Under the pieces are notes generated by a model, which did no database searches, was not told the DNA's origin, and saw only the letters and a list, made by a program, of their open reading frames with translations. Below, piece after piece: positions 15,928-25,274 of a stretch of 64,000 nucleotides of DNA (within the stretch, counting starts at the first letter, position 1; each line of letters starts with the position of its first letter). The translations under genes were made by a program, and so were the position numbers. Source of the DNA: Bdellovibrionales bacterium (lineage in GTDB: Bacteria; Bdellovibrionota; Bdellovibrionia; Bdellovibrionales; UBA1609); assembly GCA_020850475.1 (NCBI GenBank), contig JADZEO010000113.1, positions 631 to 64,630 of the forward strand. Direction: 5' to 3'.

Positions 15928-16851
15928 ATGCGGAAGTCGGCGCTCATCGCCATTTTGGTTTGGTTGGGGGCCACACTGTTTTGGTGGGCCTTCGCCTTCG
16001 CGCCGACTTCAGCTGAGACCCCCGGATGGTTTGAGGCAGCTCGCGTGGCATGCTTTGGACGCATGCCCAATGGGCTGCCCGAACCCTACGGCTGGTTAAA
16101 TCTCGTGCTCAGTCCTATCACTCTCGCCATTACTATTCTCTTTATTTGGAGCCCCCAGGAACTCAAAGAAACTTTTAAGTCGCTAGCCAGTCGTCGCGCC
16201 GGTCAGGCCTTTTTGGTTTGCACGCTGGGCGTGGTTTCAGCTCTCAGTGTTTGGGTCGGACAAAGTGTTCACAAAGCCATTCAAATCGAAATGGTTGACT
16301 TTAGTGCTCCTGATCCCAAGGCTGAGTTACCCGAAGACTACCCACGGCTTAACCGGGTACTTCCGGCGTTTTCTCTTGTCGATCAAACTGGCAACACCAT
16401 CACCGAGAAGTCTTTTTTAGGCCGACCCGTGGTACTGACATTTGCCTTTGCTCACTGTGCGACCGTCTGCCCGGTCATCATCCATCAGGTCCTTCAAGGA
16501 ATTAAGGCCGAAGATGGTGCTGAATTTTTAATCATCACTCTCGATCCCTGGCGAGACACTCCCGGGTCTTTGCCTTCAATCGCCAAAGAGTGGGAGCTTC
16601 CCGAGTTTGCCCATGTGCTCTCTCATCAAAATCCCAAAATTGTGTCAGAGCTTTTTCCCTTATTCGACATGCCAGCCACTCGTGACGATAAAACGGGTGA
16701 CATCACTCACCCAGCCTTGGTATTCGTCATAGATCCGCAAGGACAATGGATCTATACGTTTAACAATCCTCATCCCAGTTGGTTGTCTGAGGCAATTCGT
16801 CGAGTGAGTCTAAAACATGCAGGAATACAAAAGCCTCTACGATATCAGTGA
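15928..16851 (+). CDS. SCO/SenC copper chaperone with N-terminal membrane domain
   Basis: The thioredoxin-fold C-terminus has FAHCATVCP (CxxxC), ITLDPWRD and a distal His (ITHP). The N-terminus has three TMs. Confidence 0.85.
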   Translation: MRKSALIAILVWLGATLFWWAFAFAPTSAETPGWFEAARVACFGRMPNGLPEPYGWLNLVLSPITLAITILFIWSPQELKETFKSLASRRAGQAFLVCTLGVVSALSVWVGQSVHKAIQIEMVDFSAPDPKAELPEDYPRLNRVLPAFSLVDQTGNTITEKSFLGRPVVLTFAFAHCATVCPVIIHQVLQGIKAEDGAEFLIITLDPWRDTPGSLPSIAKEWELPEFAHVLSHQNPKIVSELFPLFDMPATRDDKTGDITHPALVFVIDPQGQWIYTFNNPHPSWLSEAIRRVSLKHAGIQKPLRYQ

Positions 16852-19097: not shown

Positions 19098-21089
<1,992 letters not shown>

Positions 21090-21153: not shown

Positions 21154-21187
21154 AATAAAACCCCCTCTAGTAGGGGGTTTTATTTTT
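21154..21187. terminator. Bidirectional intrinsic terminator between nirS and the FNT gene
   Basis: AATAAAACCCCCT-ctagt-AGGGGGTTTTATT, flanked by A and T tracts, between convergent genes. Confidence 0.85.
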
Positions 21188-21974
21188 TGGCCTCAGTGCT
21201 GGTAACTTCACCGCGCGAGATCCACCAATAAGCCGCACCCATAAAAAGAAAGCCGCTAAAGATATTTCCGAGCGTGACCGGAATCAGGTTGTGAGCAACT
21301 CCGGCCCACGAAACCGTTTCACTGGGAACCACCATGGCGGCGAGAGTGAGCAAAGTCATATTGGCAACACTGTGTTCGTAGCCTGAACCGATAAAGCCAA
21401 ACAAACACCAAAAGATCATGATGAGTTTTCCAGACTCTGTTTTGAGGCGATAGCAACTCCACACCGCGAGGACGACCAACCAGTTACACAAAATACCTCG
21501 CAAGAATAGTTTCCAAAAACTTAACCCCATTTTCTTAGTCGCCACCACCGAAAGAAAATGAAGACCCGCCTCGTTTGAAAAAATCCCGGCTTCCGACACC
21601 ATCCAAGCCAAGAGCAAGGATCCTAAAAAGTTCCCGAGGTAATTGACGGCAAACAACTTGCCAACGGTTTGCCAAGAAATTGCGCCCTTCAGTGCTCCCA
21701 CCGGTAAAACCATGGTGTTGCCGGTAAAGAGATCTGAGCCCGCGAGAATCACCAAACTCAGGGCGATACCAAAACTGGTACCCATCACCAGGGGCACTAA
21801 AGGGGAATTTGCTTCATAAAGAGGGGCGCCGAGTACAAAAATCAGAATAATACCCAAACCGACGTAAGCCCCAGCCATCGCCGCATGCAGGAGATATCCC
21901 GATAGGTTTTTTTTAAAAAGTCCCGCTTTGGATCGAGCTGACTCCGCAACGCTGTCTATGACGCCTTGATATAT
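21180..21974 (-). CDS. Formate/nitrite transporter (FNT family, nitrite-channel NirC type); start probably ATA at 21974
   Basis: Motifs are AMAGAYVG, GSDLFTGNTM, NYLGNFLG, RGILCNWLVVLA, GYEHSVANM and VTLGNIFSG. No in-frame ATG lies near the expected N-terminus; the alternative is TTG at 22049. Confidence 0.88.
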   Translation of the reverse strand: MYQGVIDSVAESARSKAGLFKKNLSGYLLHAAMAGAYVGLGIILIFVLGAPLYEANSPLVPLVMGTSFGIALSLVILAGSDLFTGNTMVLPVGALKGAISWQTVGKLFAVNYLGNFLGSLLLAWMVSEAGIFSNEAGLHFLSVVATKKMGLSFWKLFLRGILCNWLVVLAVWSCYRLKTESGKLIMIFWCLFGFIGSGYEHSVANMTLLTLAAMVVPSETVSWAGVAHNLIPVTLGNIFSGFLFMGAAYWWISRGEVTSTEAKK

Positions 21975-22074
21975 AGAATAGCCCCATGTGTTGTTCTGTT
22001 TGCCTGTGCATATCAAGTTTGAGACAAATAGTAAAAAGACAATGAGCAAAATGTCTCAATTAGAAAGGCGCACC

Positions 22075-23088
22075 ATGCGAAAGATGATGCTTATTTGGAC
22101 GGTGTTTAGTCAGTTGGTCTCAATCGCCGCTTTTGCAGATGTATCAGACGGACAAAAACTCTTTCAACAGCGTTGTATCTCCTGTCACACCGTCGGAAAA
22201 GGCAAGGGCGTTGGCCCTGACCTTCAAGGCGTTACCCAGCGACGGGAACAGGCTTGGTTACACCGTTGGATCCGCGAGCCCGATAAAATGCTCGCAGAAA
22301 ATGATCCGACGGCAACAGCACTCTTAAAAGAGTACAACCAAGTCCCAATGCCCAACATGGCAATCACCCCTGAGCAAGCCGATCAAATTCTGGCTTACCT
22401 GGCGAATCCAACCGCAGAAGCCGCTGCTTCTGGCGATGCCAATACCGCAGCCGGAACTACGAGTGAGGCTACCTCCCCGGGGGGAAGCAGTCAAGCGCAT
22501 GATCAAGCTCCAACTTTTGCGACGAGGGGTCGAACTCAAAACATCGCCTTCTTCTCGTTTTTGTTTATCGCGCTGGTCATTGTTCTGGTGTTCTTTTGGG
22601 TGGGTAGCACAACTTCGAATCCTCAAACCATCGATATGAAAGCCGCTTACAAGTTACGCAAAGTGTTTTTCATTTCGGGATCATTCGTTGCGATGGGGAT
22701 CTTGGCCATCACCATGTCCAAGACACCTTATGCTGATGCCCTCACCACTCCCGACAATGTGATCTATGCCACTGCCATGCAGTTTAGCTTCACTTTCTCG
22801 AATGAGCCAGTGAGCAGCGCGCAAGAGCTCTCAACGGTATCGCCCATCAGCTCGCTTGAAATTCCACGAGACACTTTGGTTGAATTTCGGGTCACCAGTC
22901 TCGACGCCACTCATGGCTTTGCCATTTACAATCAACAAGGCGTGGTCTTTGCCCAAACTCAAGCTATGCCGGGGTACACCAATCGACTGCGGGTGCGTTT
23001 TTCTGAACCTGGTGTCTACCCGGTGCTTTGTTTGGAATATTGCGGGGCCGCTCATCACATGATGCGTACCTCACTCGTCGTAAAATGA
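22075..23088 (+). CDS. Heme-copper oxidoreductase subunit II with an N-terminal fused cytochrome c (sNOR-type)
   Basis: GAAAGG RBS precedes the ATG at 22075. The order is signal peptide, CISCH...MPNM cytochrome c, Ala/Ser/Thr linker, two TMs, then CuA ligands THG and CLEYCGAAHHMM. Confidence 0.85.
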   Translation: MRKMMLIWTVFSQLVSIAAFADVSDGQKLFQQRCISCHTVGKGKGVGPDLQGVTQRREQAWLHRWIREPDKMLAENDPTATALLKEYNQVPMPNMAITPEQADQILAYLANPTAEAAASGDANTAAGTTSEATSPGGSSQAHDQAPTFATRGRTQNIAFFSFLFIALVIVLVFFWVGSTTSNPQTIDMKAAYKLRKVFFISGSFVAMGILAITMSKTPYADALTTPDNVIYATAMQFSFTFSNEPVSSAQELSTVSPISSLEIPRDTLVEFRVTSLDATHGFAIYNQQGVVFAQTQAMPGYTNRLRVRFSEPGVYPVLCLEYCGAAHHMMRTSLVVK

Positions 23089-23107
23089 ACGGAAAGGTTT
23101 AAGAAAA

Positions 23108-24523
23108 ATGGATTTAGCAAAAAAGAATACCCTCGCCTGGATTGCAATTACACTCATTCTGTTCCCCATCCTTTTGTTACTCGGAATTCTCATGCGGACC
23201 GTACAGGCCAATGGGCTTAGTGCGGCTCAGGAGTGGTTTTACCCCTTTATGACTCTTCACGGAGTCGGCATGGTTGGTGTTTGGTATGTGGGTGCGATGG
23301 CTTGTGCCGAACGCATTATCGCCAAGTACACCAAACCCAGTGCCGCGATTTCAACCTTTGCAATTGTGGGCACCACTATCGGCGTGGTGCTGCTGTTGGT
23401 TTGCGTGCTCATTGGCAAGTTTGCGGCAGGTTGGTACTTCCTTTACCCACTCCCCTTCAAGGGTAACTGGCCGGTTTGGGCAGCGACTACCTTTTTACTT
23501 TCAATCACGGTTCTCGGTGCCACTTGGCTCATTTGGAGCTTAGATCTTTTGCGCGCGATCGCACAAAAGTACTCCATCTCCAAAGCTCTGGGTTGGCACT
23601 ACATCGGAGGCGCCACCGAACCTGATGTACCTCCGGCAATTATCATTTCAACTGTCAGCCTTCTCGCCTGTGTCGCCTGTCTTTTGGCCGGCGTCACCGT
23701 GCTCGTGCTCTTTGACGCCGAACTCATCGCAGGAGTCCGCAATGACGCCTTGTTGGTGAAGAACTTGACCTTCTTTTTTGGTCACGTCCTGGTGAACTTG
23801 AGTCTCTATTTGGGTGTGGCAGTCATTTACGATGTTCTCCCTCAATATTGTGATCGTCCGTGGAAAGCGAATAAGATTGTCGCGATTTCTTGGAATAGCG
23901 TACTCGCGATTGTTTTTATGGCTTACTTCCATCACCTCTATATGGACTTTGTGCAGCCGACGACCTTTCAATATCTGGGACAAATCGCATCTTACATGAG
24001 TTCACTTCCCGCCGCTGTGGTCACGATCTTTGGCGCCTTGGCACTGGTGTTCCATGCTAAGATGCGCTGGACTCTTACCTCCGCCTTGTTTTACTTAGCT
24101 CTCATGGGCTGGGCGATCGGCGGCGTTGGTGCAGTCATCGACTCCACGATTGCCGTAAACTCAAAGTTTCACAACACCCTTTGGGTGCCAGCTCACTTTC
24201 ACACCTATATGTTAGAAGGCCTGGTACTGATGGTGCTTGGCTACTACTATCATTTCGTTCAAGAGAACGCGAAACTCCCCGAGAGCTGGGGCTTTCATAA
24301 AGTCATCTTGAGTATGATTGTCGTCGGCGGCTACGGCTTTCTGATGATGTTTTATATCTCAGGTGCGAATTCAGTCCCTCGACGTTTCGCGACCTACCCT
24401 GCAGAAGTAGCACACGGTGCCTCTTACTCGGGTTTCGCGGCGGTTTTTGCCACCGTGTTTTTCATGGGTTTACTTCTTTATGCCATCGAGACTGGAAAGC
24501 GCTGGCTGAATGTTCGCGGTTAA
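23108..24523 (+). CDS. Heme-copper oxidoreductase subunit I, probable sNOR-family nitric oxide reductase
   Basis: His ligands are TLHG, GH226, FHH and AHFH. The cross-link Tyr position is Asn (H226-V-L-V-N230). It also has HHLYMDF and HNTLWVPAHFH and is a compact 471 aa. Confidence 0.75.
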   Translation: MDLAKKNTLAWIAITLILFPILLLLGILMRTVQANGLSAAQEWFYPFMTLHGVGMVGVWYVGAMACAERIIAKYTKPSAAISTFAIVGTTIGVVLLLVCVLIGKFAAGWYFLYPLPFKGNWPVWAATTFLLSITVLGATWLIWSLDLLRAIAQKYSISKALGWHYIGGATEPDVPPAIIISTVSLLACVACLLAGVTVLVLFDAELIAGVRNDALLVKNLTFFFGHVLVNLSLYLGVAVIYDVLPQYCDRPWKANKIVAISWNSVLAIVFMAYFHHLYMDFVQPTTFQYLGQIASYMSSLPAAVVTIFGALALVFHAKMRWTLTSALFYLALMGWAIGGVGAVIDSTIAVNSKFHNTLWVPAHFHTYMLEGLVLMVLGYYYHFVQENAKLPESWGFHKVILSMIVVGGYGFLMMFYISGANSVPRRFATYPAEVAHGASYSGFAAVFATVFFMGLLLYAIETGKRWLNVRG

Positions 24524-25274
24524 ACGCCTCGTAGGTATCTTGCTGCCGTGGTTGTTGGCGATACCGACAACTGCGGCGATCGCCGATGAGATTATGCGGA
24601 CCGAGGCCAAAGGCCTTTACAAATCACTTCCTGACATTCCCGTACAAATCGCCAATGGACAAACCCAACCCCTCTCCTCTTTCTGGAAAGACAAGCCGGT
24701 TCTGCTTACACTTTTTTATCGCCGGTGCAGTGGCTCTTGTAGTCCATTCTTGATGAATCTTAAGTCAGCTGTGGAAGACTCCGGCGGACTCGGTGATTTT
24801 TATCAAGTTGTCGCTTTAAGTTTTGACCCGCGTGACACCCTTGAAGACCTCCAACAGTCCGCTGCCACTTTTAAGTTGGACCAATCGCCCGACTGGCACT
24901 TTGCTGTGGCCGATGCCGCAAGTATTGCCAAGATTGCCGACACCATTGGTTTTTGGTTTAAAAAGATCCCGACCGACCAAGAGCAGTTTGATCACCCCTC
25001 GATGATTGCCGCCATTCGCGATGGCAAGATTGTCCGAGTCCTAGTCGGTACTGAAATTCCTCATGCGCGGATGCGCGATCTCATCTACGAAGTCAAAGGG
25101 GTGTTCGTGCCCTTTTTGGCAGTGCCCGGCAAAGACACGATTTTTCGCTGTTTTAAAATTGATCCCAAGACTGGCACTCTTCGTCTTGACTGGGGAATCC
25201 TAATTCTTATGGCCCCCGCCCTACTCGCCGCCTTGATCGGCTATTTTATATTCCGACGCAAGCCCGCGCCGTAA
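24510..25274 (+). CDS. SCO/SenC copper chaperone (C-terminally anchored)
   Basis: RCSGSCSP (CxxxC), LSFDPRD and FDHP, with a C-terminal TM. It overlaps the subunit I stop. Confidence 0.85.
   Translation: MFAVKRLVGILLPWLLAIPTTAAIADEIMRTEAKGLYKSLPDIPVQIANGQTQPLSSFWKDKPVLLTLFYRRCSGSCSPFLMNLKSAVEDSGGLGDFYQVVALSFDPRDTLEDLQQSAATFKLDQSPDWHFAVADAASIAKIADTIGFWFKKIPTDQEQFDHPSMIAAIRDGKIVRVLVGTEIPHARMRDLIYEVKGVFVPFLAVPGKDTIFRCFKIDPKTGTLRLDWGILILMAPALLAALIGYFIFRRKPAP

What the first reader, a model, noticed from the sequence alone, without database searches (positions are those of the whole stretch)
22075..24523. sNOR-type enzyme whose subunit II has an N-terminal tethered cytochrome c
Seen: signal peptide, cytochrome c (CISCH, MPNM), a flexible A/S/T linker, two TMs and CuA. 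This topology puts both redox domains in the periplasm. Established: caa3 oxidases fuse cytochrome c C-terminal to CuA, and sNOR remains biochemically poorly characterised. Inference: the same tethered-donor design as the fused NirS next door, suggesting short hard-wired electron paths. The closest alternative family is bNOR, which also has Asn.
Basis: partly seen in the sequence, partly recalled or inferred. Interest (0 to 1): 0.65.

Follow-up and report, generated by a model that had tools for sequence, protein, structure and literature searches.

The report
sNOR-type reductase with tethered cytochrome c
This operon encodes a copper-haem enzyme of the little-studied sNOR family, probably a nitric oxide reductase, whose small subunit carries its own cytochrome c on a flexible tether. 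The design is not unique to this genome: it marks a whole, apparently undescribed branch of the family that occurs almost only in bacteria that also make NO from nitrite.

Summary
Window 22075-23088 is one uninterrupted ORF: signal peptide, class-I cytochrome c (C34-x-x-C37-H38, Met92), a disordered 44-residue Ala/Ser/Thr linker, two TM helices and a CuA cupredoxin. Subunit I follows (23108-24523, GH226VLVN230, Asn replacing the cross-link Tyr), then a SenC/Sco-like gene.

Subunit I is 38% identical to Nitrosomonas NorY, the type sNOR. It forms a supported clade with it (SH-aLRT 99), apart from A-family, B-family and eNOR sequences. It is not bNOR-like.

The fusion is a clade trait. It occurs in 38 of the 41 sampled GTDB species of one subclade (SH-aLRT 97) and in more than 100 protein clusters. 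All haem c and CuA ligands are invariant in 64 homologues.

AOB-type sNOR and the nearest sister clade have a short subunit II without cytochrome c. Genomes of the fused clade carry NirS or NirK in 36 of 41 cases, against 1 of 39 for the sister clade.

Best reading: an sNOR-type NO reductase with a built-in electron donor, working like caa3 with the domain order reversed. Activity is untested, and no paper found describes the fusion. It is a new variant of a known kind, of moderate interest.

The parts
22075..23088 (+). Subunit II (norS-like), 337 aa: signal peptide, cytochrome c, linker, two TM helices, CuA cupredoxin, all in one ORF
22075..22137 (+). Sec signal peptide (residues 1-21, AFA|DV)
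   Evidence: sequence; hydropathy; AF2 helix 2-19
22138..22410 (+). Class-I cytochrome c domain (residues 22-112). Haem motif C34ISC37H38 lies at 22174-22188 and the axial Met92 codon at 22348-22350
   Evidence: Pfam PF00034/PF13442. C34, C37, H38 and M92 are invariant in 64 homologues. Best PDB sequence match is 2L4D, the cytochrome c domain of a Sco fusion protein, E 1.6e-24. pLDDT 88-98
22411..22530 (+). Flexible Ala/Ser/Thr/Gly/Pro linker (about residues 113-152)
   Evidence: pLDDT below 50 at residues 123-144. Measured between alignment anchors 110 and 155, linker length is 23-44 residues across homologues, and this one is the longest. Column identity is 0.23, against 0.64-0.69 in the domains
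22531..22716 (+). Two transmembrane helices (residues 153-179 and 188-214) joined by a Lys/Arg-rich cytoplasmic loop
   Evidence: AF2 helices; hydropathy
22756..23085 (+). CuA cupredoxin domain (residues 228-337). Ligands are H280 and C319-x-E321-x-C323-x3-H327-x2-M330 (motif at 23029-23064)
   Evidence: Pfam PF00116; invariant ligands; Foldseek top hit 2YEV_B, then ba3 and aa3 subunit II
23108..24523 (+). Subunit I (norY-like), 471 aa. Haem ligands are H51, H363 and H365. CuB/FeB ligands are H226, H275 and H276. Asn230 replaces the cross-link Tyr (GHVLVN at 23780-23797)
   Evidence: 38% identity to Nitrosomonas NorY; trees
24510..25274 (+). SenC/Sco1-like protein (254 aa, CSGSC motif, C-terminal TM helix), probably the CuA assembly factor. 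Its start overlaps the subunit I stop by 14 nt
   Evidence: Pfam PF02630, E 5e-7; a homologous ORF was detected downstream of subunit I in 77 of the 80 related loci, the other three ending at or near a contig end
21180..22049 (-). NirC/FNT nitrite channel, transcribed divergently (context)
   Evidence: Pfam PF01226, NCBIfam NirC; FNT genes also lie beside sNOR operons in L006, L007, L011, L013, L017, L034, L035, L037, L085 and L087
19128..21089 (+). cd1 nitrite reductase NirS with an extra N-terminal cytochrome c (context: the NO source)

Best explanation
The three genes (subunit II, subunit I, SenC-like) encode a two-subunit haem-copper oxidoreductase of the sNOR family. It most likely reduces NO made by the neighbouring NirS to N2O.

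Proposed path, all steps inferred except where noted:
1. Subunit II is exported, its signal peptide is cleaved, and haem is attached to C34/C37.
2. The cytochrome c domain hangs in the periplasm on a disordered tether of about 40 residues, attached to the periplasmic end of TM1.
3. It collects electrons from the cell's quinol:cytochrome c oxidoreductase. This genome has Alternative Complex III and no bc1. A soluble or anchored cytochrome c could also be the source.
4. It docks on the CuA domain of the same polypeptide and passes electrons on: haem c to CuA, to the low-spin haem (H51/H365), to the high-spin haem (H363) and CuB site (H226, H275, H276, with Asn230 where O2 reductases have the cross-linked Tyr).
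5. There 2 NO + 2 e- + 2 H+ give N2O + H2O.
6. The SenC-like protein loads CuA.

Shown here: the gene and domain anatomy, conservation of every cofactor ligand, family placement, and the tight co-occurrence of this clade with nitrite reductases. Inferred: substrate, direction of electron flow, the donor to the tether, and any proton uptake from the cytoplasm.
For: - Anatomy and conserved ligands.
- The Asn active-site signature is the published sNOR/bNOR hallmark (PMC8756737 Table A4; PMC11214002).
- A Nitrosomonas genome, identified by three... one amoA copy in G129 and by 86% identity of its subunit I to the Nitrosomonas sp. Nm132 protein, carries norS-norY-senC-orf1. Its NorY matches P0002 at 38% identity, E 3.6e-82.
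- IQ-TREE places all 98 sNOR-like sequences in one clade (SH-aLRT 99), apart from A-family, B-family (7DEG_A) and this genome's own eNOR.
- The subunit II - subunit I - senC module was detected in 77 of 80 related loci.
- NirS and NirC are adjacent here and in 9 other fused-clade loci.
- Genomes of the fused clade carry NirS (29/41) or NirK (7/41). The unfused sister clade has 0/39 and 1/39. Fisher p is 3e-16, and within Acidobacteriota alone the split is 6/6 against 1/23, p 1.5e-5.
- This genome has nar, nirS and eNOR but no nosZ and no bc1, and it has ACIII.
- The closest solved fold for subunit II is the caa3 IIc subunit 2YEV_B, a proven tethered-donor design.
Against: - No sNOR of any clade has been purified, so NO reduction is a prediction for the whole family (PMC11214002).
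- N. europaea transcript data led others to propose that sNOR is a high-affinity O2 reductase (bioRxiv 10.1101/765727).
- This genome already has an eNOR 6 kb upstream, so a second NOR is not strictly needed.
- bNOR, gNOR and nNOR reference sequences could not be fetched, so exclusion of those families rests on indirect evidence.
- The outgroup branches of the tree are very long.
- The Glu reported as conserved in sNOR is Asp242 here.
- L018 and L050 lie inside the fused clade, lack the cytochrome c and still co-occur with NirS. The Nir link therefore belongs to the clade, not strictly to the fusion.
Confidence: 0.7

Rival explanations
1. The enzyme is mainly a cytochrome c : O2 oxidoreductase, a high-affinity micro-oxic terminal oxidase with a built-in cytochrome c. 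NO reduction would be a side reaction at most.
For: - It is a haem-copper enzyme with a three-His CuB site and CuA, like the O2 reductases.
- N. europaea sNOR transcripts rise 2.7- to 10.8-fold under O2 limitation, and those authors favour an oxidase role (bioRxiv 10.1101/765727).
- The unfused sister clade lives in genomes without Nir and often next to a Bcp peroxiredoxin.
- An eNOR is already present in this window.
Against: - The cross-link Tyr, which the cited authors regard as required for four-electron O2 reduction, is replaced by Asn in all 98 sequences (PMC11214002).
- 36 of 41 fused-clade genomes have NirS or NirK, and several operons are adjacent to nirS or nirC.
Confidence: 0.17
2. 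The tethered cytochrome c is not the donor to its own CuA. It would serve another partner instead, for example as an electron relay to NirS or other periplasmic reductases, as a docking element for a Nir-NOR supercomplex, or as a redox sensor.
For: - The same cytochrome c module occurs as one to three tandem copies on flexible linkers in membrane-anchored cytochromes that have no CuA (P0362, P0363, and the 296-aa protein on C157 ahead of narGHJI).
- It therefore looks like a general-purpose mobile carrier.
- The linker is long enough to reach neighbouring complexes.
Against: - The module is fused to the CuA subunit in 38 of 41 species of the clade, and both redox sites are invariant.
- In caa3, the one solved case of a cytochrome c fused to subunit II, the domain feeds CuA (2YEV).
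- Some canonical sNOR operons instead encode a separate small cytochrome c directly upstream of subunit II (L085). This fits a dedicated donor role.
Confidence: 0.08
3. The enzyme is a bNOR (qCuANOR-type) relative and not an sNOR.
For: bNOR shares the Asn active-site signature and a CuA subunit (PMC8756737 Table A4; PMC11214002).
Against: [quoted passage not shown]
- This subunit I scores only 33 bits (E 2.5e-7) against ba3, whereas the genome's own B-derived eNOR scores 150 bits.
- It scores 276 bits against Nitrosomonas NorY.
- In the tree it is separated from B-family plus eNOR.
- The hosts are Gram-negative phyla.
Confidence: 0.02
4. The fusion is an artefact: a frameshift or misassembly that joined a cytochrome c gene to subunit II.
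For: None found. A separate cytochrome c gene does precede subunit II in one canonical operon (L085).
Against: - The ORF is continuous here.
- The same fusion is found in independent assemblies of 38 other species and in more than 100 protein clusters.
- Linker lengths vary but the reading frame is conserved.
- The L085 cytochrome c is a different type.
Confidence: 0.01

Closest known systems
sNOR of ammonia oxidisers (norS-norY-senC-orf1; Nitrosomonas, Nitrosococcus)
   Same: - Subunit I has the same ligand set and the GHxxxN (Asn) active site.
- 38% identity, and one clade in the trees.
- The CuA subunit II has two TM helices and a near-identical AQTQAMPGYTN...CLEYCGxxHH motif.
- The gene order subunit II - subunit I - senC is shared.
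- FNT (NirC-like) genes are frequent neighbours.
   Different: - AOB-type subunit II is 172-182 aa with no signal peptide and no cytochrome c.
- An orf1 membrane-protein gene follows senC there and is absent here.
- The SenC-like proteins are barely alignable between the two types.
- A long branch separates the two clades (stems 1.5 and 0.8 substitutions per site).
caa3-type cytochrome c oxidase (Thermus thermophilus, PDB 2YEV), subunit IIc
   Same: A class-I cytochrome c is covalently joined to the two-TM CuA subunit, so the enzyme carries its own donor. It is the best structural match to the model (Foldseek E 1e-9).
   Different: - In caa3 the cytochrome c follows the CuA domain at the C-terminus. 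Here it precedes TM1 at the N-terminus, behind a signal peptide and on a long disordered linker.
- caa3 is an A-family O2 reductase with the His-Tyr cross-link.
Unfused sister clade of this enzyme (Acidobacteriota, Kryptonia, Calditrichota, Planctomycetota and other MAGs)
   Same: Subunit I is 49-60% identical, with the same active site and the same three-gene module with the long SenC-like protein.
   Different: - Subunit II is 181-279 aa, mostly 185-230 aa, and starts directly with TM1.
- 1 of 39 genomes has NirS or NirK, against 36 of 41 for the fused clade.
- The frequent neighbour is a Bcp peroxiredoxin.
Membrane-anchored cytochromes c (cytochrome cy / c552 type) and the anchored multi-module cytochromes found here (P0362, P0363, C157 296-aa protein)
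   Same: The same cytochrome c module, 37-50% identical, sits on Ala/Pro/Ser-rich flexible linkers attached to a membrane anchor.
   Different: Those proteins are free-standing carriers with a C-terminal anchor and no CuA. Here the anchor is the reductase's own subunit II.
bNOR (qCuANOR) of Bacillus azotoformans
   Same: Asn replaces the Tyr, the small subunit holds CuA, and NO reductase activity has been demonstrated (PMC11214002).
   Different: It is B-family-derived and confined to Bacillales, with a small subunit II and no fused cytochrome c. This enzyme shows only remote similarity to B-family sequences.

Membership tests
sNOR (haem-copper NO reductase family of Hemp & Gennis / Murali et al.) | Haem-copper subunit I with the six canonical His ligands | tested here: met
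   H51, H226, H275, H276, H363 and H365 are conserved in all three subgroups (98 sequences). PF00115, E 3e-44
sNOR (haem-copper NO reductase family of Hemp & Gennis / Murali et al.) | Asn in place of the cross-linked active-site Tyr (GHxxxN in helix VI) | tested here: met
   FFGH226VLVN230. N230 is conserved at 90% or more in each of the three subgroups of the 98 sequences, Nitrosomonas NorY included. The criterion is taken from PMC8756737 Table A4
sNOR (haem-copper NO reductase family of Hemp & Gennis / Murali et al.) | Secondary subunit with a CuA-binding cupredoxin domain | tested here: met
   H280, C319, E321, C323, H327 and M330 are invariant in 64 homologues. PF00116. Fold match to CuA subunits
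sNOR (haem-copper NO reductase family of Hemp & Gennis / Murali et al.) | Groups phylogenetically with the type sNOR (nitrifier NorY), apart from other haem-copper families | tested here: met
   38% identity, E 3.6e-82 to Nitrosomonas NorY. One clade with SH-aLRT 99 against A-family, B-family (7DEG_A) and eNOR. Caveat: bNOR, gNOR and nNOR references were not obtainable, and the outgroup branches are long
sNOR (haem-copper NO reductase family of Hemp & Gennis / Murali et al.) | K-channel variant with a family-specific conserved Glu (PMC11214002) | tested here: inconclusive
   The only Glu invariant in the canonical clade (E253, Nitrosomonas numbering) aligns with D242 here. The position is acidic (E or D) in 98 of 98 sequences. 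The paper's residue table was not available for confirmation
sNOR (haem-copper NO reductase family of Hemp & Gennis / Murali et al.) | Nitrifier-type operon norS-norY-senC-orf1 | tested here: not met
   The order subunit II - subunit I - senC is kept, but no orf1 homologue follows here or in any of the 80 related loci. This describes the nitrifier operon and is not a stated family criterion
sNOR (haem-copper NO reductase family of Hemp & Gennis / Murali et al.) | NO reductase activity | not testable with these tools
   Only indirect support: nirS and nirC are adjacent, and 36 of 41 fused-clade genomes carry NirS or NirK
bNOR (qCuANOR) | [quoted passage not shown] | tested here: not met
   33 bits against ba3 1EHK, versus 150 bits for this genome's eNOR. 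Separated from B-family plus eNOR in the tree. Hosts are Bdellovibrionota, Pseudomonadota, Acidobacteriota, Myxococcota and others
caa3-type (A2) cytochrome c oxidase | Cytochrome c domain at the C-terminus of subunit II, and the His-Tyr cross-link in subunit I | tested here: not met
   The cytochrome c is N-terminal (residues 22-112), ahead of TM1. Tyr is replaced by Asn230
cNOR (NorCB) | Separate haem c subunit NorC, no CuA, FeB site with a Glu ligand | tested here: not met
   CuA is present and invariant. Subunit I has the GHVLVN motif. The published sNOR signature at the active-site position is N, against E for cNOR (PMC8756737 Table A4)

The most novel reading that the evidence does not exclude
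The cytochrome-c-fused enzymes form a distinct, so far undescribed lineage of the sNOR family that is dedicated to denitrification. On this reading, gaining a tethered donor, or the events on that same branch, coincided with recruitment into nitrite-reducing bacteria across at least six phyla by horizontal transfer. The unfused sister lineage would do something else in non-denitrifiers.

In the cell the tether would hard-wire the reductase to Alternative Complex III, or to the cytochrome c arm of NirS, in a Nir-NOR electron-sharing assembly that keeps free NO low.
Probability: 0.3. Interest if true: 0.6.

Novelty: new variant of a known kind. Interest (0 to 1): 0.45.

Why it matters
- sNOR is one of the haem-copper families proposed to produce N2O, yet no member has been purified, and its substrate (NO or O2) is disputed.
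- This analysis splits off a subclade that carries its own cytochrome c and sits almost only in genomes with NirS or NirK. The closest unfused relatives almost never do. That is the clearest genomic argument found here that at least this branch works in denitrification.
- It also points to good material for the first biochemical test of the family. The built-in haem c gives a spectroscopic handle and lets artificial reductants feed the enzyme. A cultured denitrifier, Steroidobacter denitrificans, has a homologue.
- For gene surveys: NCBI names these subunit II proteins simply 'c-type cytochrome' and names subunit I 'cbb3-type oxidase subunit I'. N2O-producing potential in wastewater and soil MAGs is therefore easy to miss.
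- This organism has nar, nirS, eNOR and this enzyme but no nosZ, so it is predicted to release N2O.

Tried and rejected
- FNR/DNR box: a search for TTGAT-N4-ATCAA with up to 2 mismatches found no site in the short region between nirC and subunit II. The sigma-70 scan also found no promoter there.
- Supplementary tables of PMC11214002 (residue lists, family members) are not held. It could not be confirmed directly that the authors' sNOR set includes this clade.
- Shared module with NirS: rejected. The NirS N-terminal cytochrome c and this one match only at BLASTP E 0.05.
- Split form of the fusion: the separate cytochrome c gene upstream of subunit II in a Neptuniibacter sNOR operon is not the unfused counterpart. 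Only the haem motif aligns.
A B-family sequence (7DEG_A) was rebuilt from the printed alignment as a substitute.
- The representatives search showed that the fused architecture collapses to roughly 6-8 clusters at 50% identity. Most other strong hits match only the cytochrome c module or only the CuA half, so the total hit count does not measure the size of the fused family.
- Vertical inheritance: rejected. Only 1 of 60 relatives of this genome has a full-length homologue.
Full report
**What is in the window**

Three co-oriented, tightly packed genes lie at 22075-23088, 23108-24523 and 24510-25274 on the + strand. There is a 19-nt gap between the first two genes and a 14-nt overlap between the last two.

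The first gene translates without a stop to 337 residues. It begins with a typical Sec signal (MRKMMLIWTVFSQLVSIAAFA|DV), and a GAAAGG Shine-Dalgarno-like element precedes the ATG at 22075.

Pfam finds a class-I cytochrome c at residues 24-111 and the COX2 periplasmic domain at 259-331. The haem motif is C34-I-S-C37-H38 and the axial ligand sits in M92-P-N-M. The CuA site is complete: H280 and C319-x-E321-x-C323-x3-H327-x2-M330.

An AlphaFold2 model built on 64 homologues has mean pLDDT 85. It shows:
- a confident cytochrome c domain;
- a segment at 123-144 with pLDDT below 50;
- two long helices at 153-179 and 188-214;
- a beta-sandwich at 228-336.

The loop between the two helices is Lys/Arg-rich. 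The expected topology is therefore cytochrome c outside, TM1 running inwards, TM2 running outwards, and CuA outside.

The second gene is a 471-residue COX1-family subunit I (PF00115, E 3e-44). It has FFGH226VLVN230, H275H276 and H363FH365, so Asn stands where O2 reductases carry the cross-linked Tyr. The third gene is a SCO1/SenC-like protein with a CSGSC motif and a C-terminal TM helix.

**Which family**

Published tables give Asn as the active-site signature of sNOR and of CuANOR/bNOR. eNOR has Gln and gNOR has Asp (PMC8756737 Table A4). PMC11214002 states that sNOR and bNOR share an active site but are not closely related.

To obtain an authentic sNOR, I sampled 400 Burkholderiales genomes for amoA and searched the ammonia oxidisers found there with subunit I. 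One of them (G129) has a locus, L081, that encodes:
- a 174-aa CuA subunit II;
- a 496-aa subunit I with YFFGHVVIN;
- SenC;
- a 189-aa membrane protein.

This is exactly the norS-norY-senC-orf1 operon described for nitrifiers. Its subunit I is 86% identical to the Nitrosomonas sp. Nm132 protein and 75% identical to that of Nitrosococcus halophilus. It matches the window's subunit I at 38% identity, E 3.6e-82.

By contrast, the window's subunit I scores only 55 bits against Paracoccus aa3 and 33 bits against Thermus ba3. The eNOR subunit I encoded 6 kb upstream scores about 150 bits against B-family structures.

Two IQ-TREE runs gave the same picture (LG+C20, SH-aLRT):
- All 98 sNOR-like sequences form one clade (support 99). 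It is separate from the A family and from B family plus eNOR.
- Inside it, the nitrifier-type clade (98) is sister to a second clade (92).
- The second clade splits into an unfused group and the clade containing the window (97).

The enzyme is therefore an sNOR in the broad sense, in a deep sister lineage of the nitrifier type. It is not a bNOR, which is described as nested in the B family and confined to Bacillales. Authentic bNOR, gNOR and nNOR sequences could not be fetched, so that exclusion is indirect.

Across the three subgroups the six His ligands and N230 are conserved, together with K218, D280, R425 and R426. The one Glu invariant in the nitrifier-type clade aligns with Asp242 here, and that position is acidic in 98 of 98 sequences.

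**How common is the fusion**

A search of the 5.8-billion-protein collection with subunit II returned 442 hits. Nearly all of the best 120 are 290-360 aa and carry both PF00034 and PF00116. NCBI names them 'c-type cytochrome'. Among them is the cultured denitrifier Steroidobacter denitrificans.

In GTDB species genomes, 553 encode a relative of subunit I, and 80 loci were retrieved. Every locus that is not truncated has subunit II directly upstream, and a SenC-like ORF was detected downstream in 77 of the 80.

Subunit II architecture splits cleanly by clade:
- Loci with 59-60% or more subunit I identity have CxxCH about 270 residues before the CuA motif.
- Loci with 60% identity or less have a short subunit II (181-279 aa, mostly 185-230) that starts directly with TM1.
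- On the tree the fused proteins fall in one clade of 41. L018 and L050, a sister pair inside it, lack the cytochrome c. L024 is cut by a contig end.

In 64 aligned fused homologues, C34, C37, H38, M92 and all CuA ligands are invariant. The linker is different: 23-44 residues long (this one is the longest), rich in Ala, Pro, Ser and Gly, with column identity 0.23 against 0.64-0.69 in the domains.

At 50% clustering the fused architecture collapses to roughly 6-8 clusters. Only 1 of 60 relatives of this genome has it. The nearest sequences come from Myxococcota and Acidobacteriota MAGs, which points to horizontal transfer.

The cytochrome c module is itself a widespread mobile unit:
- Its best solved relative is the cytochrome c domain of a Sco fusion protein (2L4D, E 1.6e-24).
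- It occurs in one to three tandem copies on similar linkers in membrane-anchored cytochromes without CuA.
- One such protein is a 296-aa protein ahead of narGHJI on contig C157 of this genome.

It is unrelated to the extra cytochrome c of the neighbouring NirS (E 0.05). It is also unrelated to the separate small cytochrome c gene upstream of subunit II in a Neptuniibacter sNOR operon.

**What it probably does**

The gene neighbourhood is denitrification. NirS lies at 19128-21089, a NirC-type nitrite channel at 21180-22049, haem d1 genes lie downstream and an eNOR upstream.

The genome has four COX1-type genes (A-type, eNOR, this one, and an odd one on C63). It has nar genes, no NosZ, no bc1-type cytochrome b other than the cytochrome b/Fe-S fusion in the window, and an ACIII marker, ActD.

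The strongest functional evidence is comparative:

| Clade | NirS | NirK | Either |
|---|---|---|---|
| Fused clade (41 genomes) | 29 | 7 (different genomes) | 36 of 41 |
| Unfused sister clade (39 genomes) | 0 | 1 | 1 of 39 |

Fisher's exact p is 3e-16. The contrast holds within Acidobacteriota alone, 6 of 6 against 1 of 23, p 1.5e-5. It is therefore not simply an effect of host phylogeny.

Nine fused-clade loci also have nirS and/or nirC within 4 kb. L018 and L050 lack the cytochrome c and still have NirS, so the association belongs to the clade, not strictly to the domain.

The best-supported reading is an NO reductase with a built-in donor. Electrons would pass from ACIII, or from another cytochrome c, to the tethered haem c, then to CuA, the low-spin haem and the binuclear site. 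The tether is long enough to let the domain move between a reductase and its own CuA domain. In function this is the caa3 solution with the domain order reversed, and 2YEV_B is the top structural match.

None of this has been measured. The alternative, a micro-oxic O2 reductase, has been proposed for nitrifier sNOR and cannot be excluded without enzymology.

**Novelty**

Full-text searches combining sNOR, subunit II, fused or tethered cytochrome c, CuA and caa3 found no description of an N-terminal cytochrome c on a CuA subunit or on sNOR. PMC11214002 and PMC8756737 describe the sNOR secondary subunit only as CuA/cupredoxin.

The library is incomplete and the key supplementary tables are not held. 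'Undescribed' therefore means 'not found here'. The gene is one ordinary member of a moderately large clade. What is new is the variant and its tie to nitrite reducers, not this particular copy.

**Limits**

- The trees were quick searches with long outgroup branches.
- MAG incompleteness affects the absence calls for Nir.
- Only the top 80 of 553 loci were examined.

Noticed in passing
own genome contig C157:2017-12526 (outside the window): This contig carries a GAF-wHTH-BTAD (SARP-like) regulator, then a 296-aa membrane-anchored dihaem cytochrome c, then narGHJI. The first module of the cytochrome is 37% identical to the subunit II cytochrome c domain. The same regulator type lies next to the sNOR operon in 17 of 41 fused-clade loci, for example L007:5087-6730(-). 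It may be a denitrification regulator with an unknown signal.
   Followed up: partly
own genome contig C63:1064-2293 (outside the window): This is a 452-466-aa COX1-like membrane protein that scores below the Pfam cut-off (32.6 bits). It has GGGHLLQH and VPGHYH motifs but no HH pair, so it looks like a CuB-less, haem-only paralogue. No CuA subunit gene was seen in the search hits.
   Followed up: partly
loci L038-L080 (unfused sister clade): The sister clade has a short subunit II and is almost never found with NirS or NirK (1 of 39 genomes). In 12 loci it has a Bcp/AhpC-TSA peroxiredoxin gene just downstream, for example L039:6279-6761(-). Its substrate may differ from that of the fused clade.
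   Followed up: partly
L018:3160-3996 and L050:70-846: These two gammaproteobacterial members sit inside the fused clade. Their subunit II has a signal-peptide-like N-terminus that runs straight into TM1, with no cytochrome c. This is either a secondary loss or the state just before the fusion. Both genomes have NirS.
   Followed up: partly
L085:3156-3458 (Neptuniibacter-like sNOR operon): A nitrifier-type sNOR operon with a separate 100-aa cytochrome c gene 13 nt upstream of subunit II, and an FNT channel downstream. The cytochrome is not homologous to the fused module. It looks like an independent way of giving sNOR a dedicated donor. L086 and L087 instead have an Rrf2 (NsrR-like) regulator gene downstream.
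   Followed up: partly
proteins P0362, P0363, P0369, P0370: These are 'beads on a string' cytochromes. Each has two or three tandem copies of the same cytochrome c module separated by Ala/Ser/Thr/Pro linkers, then a further CxxCH domain and a C-terminal membrane anchor.
   Followed up: no
whole genome G000: The genome has nar, nirS, eNOR and this sNOR-type enzyme, but no NosZ and no bc1 complex. An ACIII marker lies on C40. The organism is predicted to be a truncated denitrifier that ends at N2O, with two different haem-copper NO reductases.
   Followed up: partly
window 16003-16851 (+): An ORF between the eNOR genes and the cytochrome b/Fe-S gene shows weak similarity (23%) to the Nitrosomonas SenC. 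It may be a second Sco-type copper chaperone serving the eNOR.
   Followed up: no
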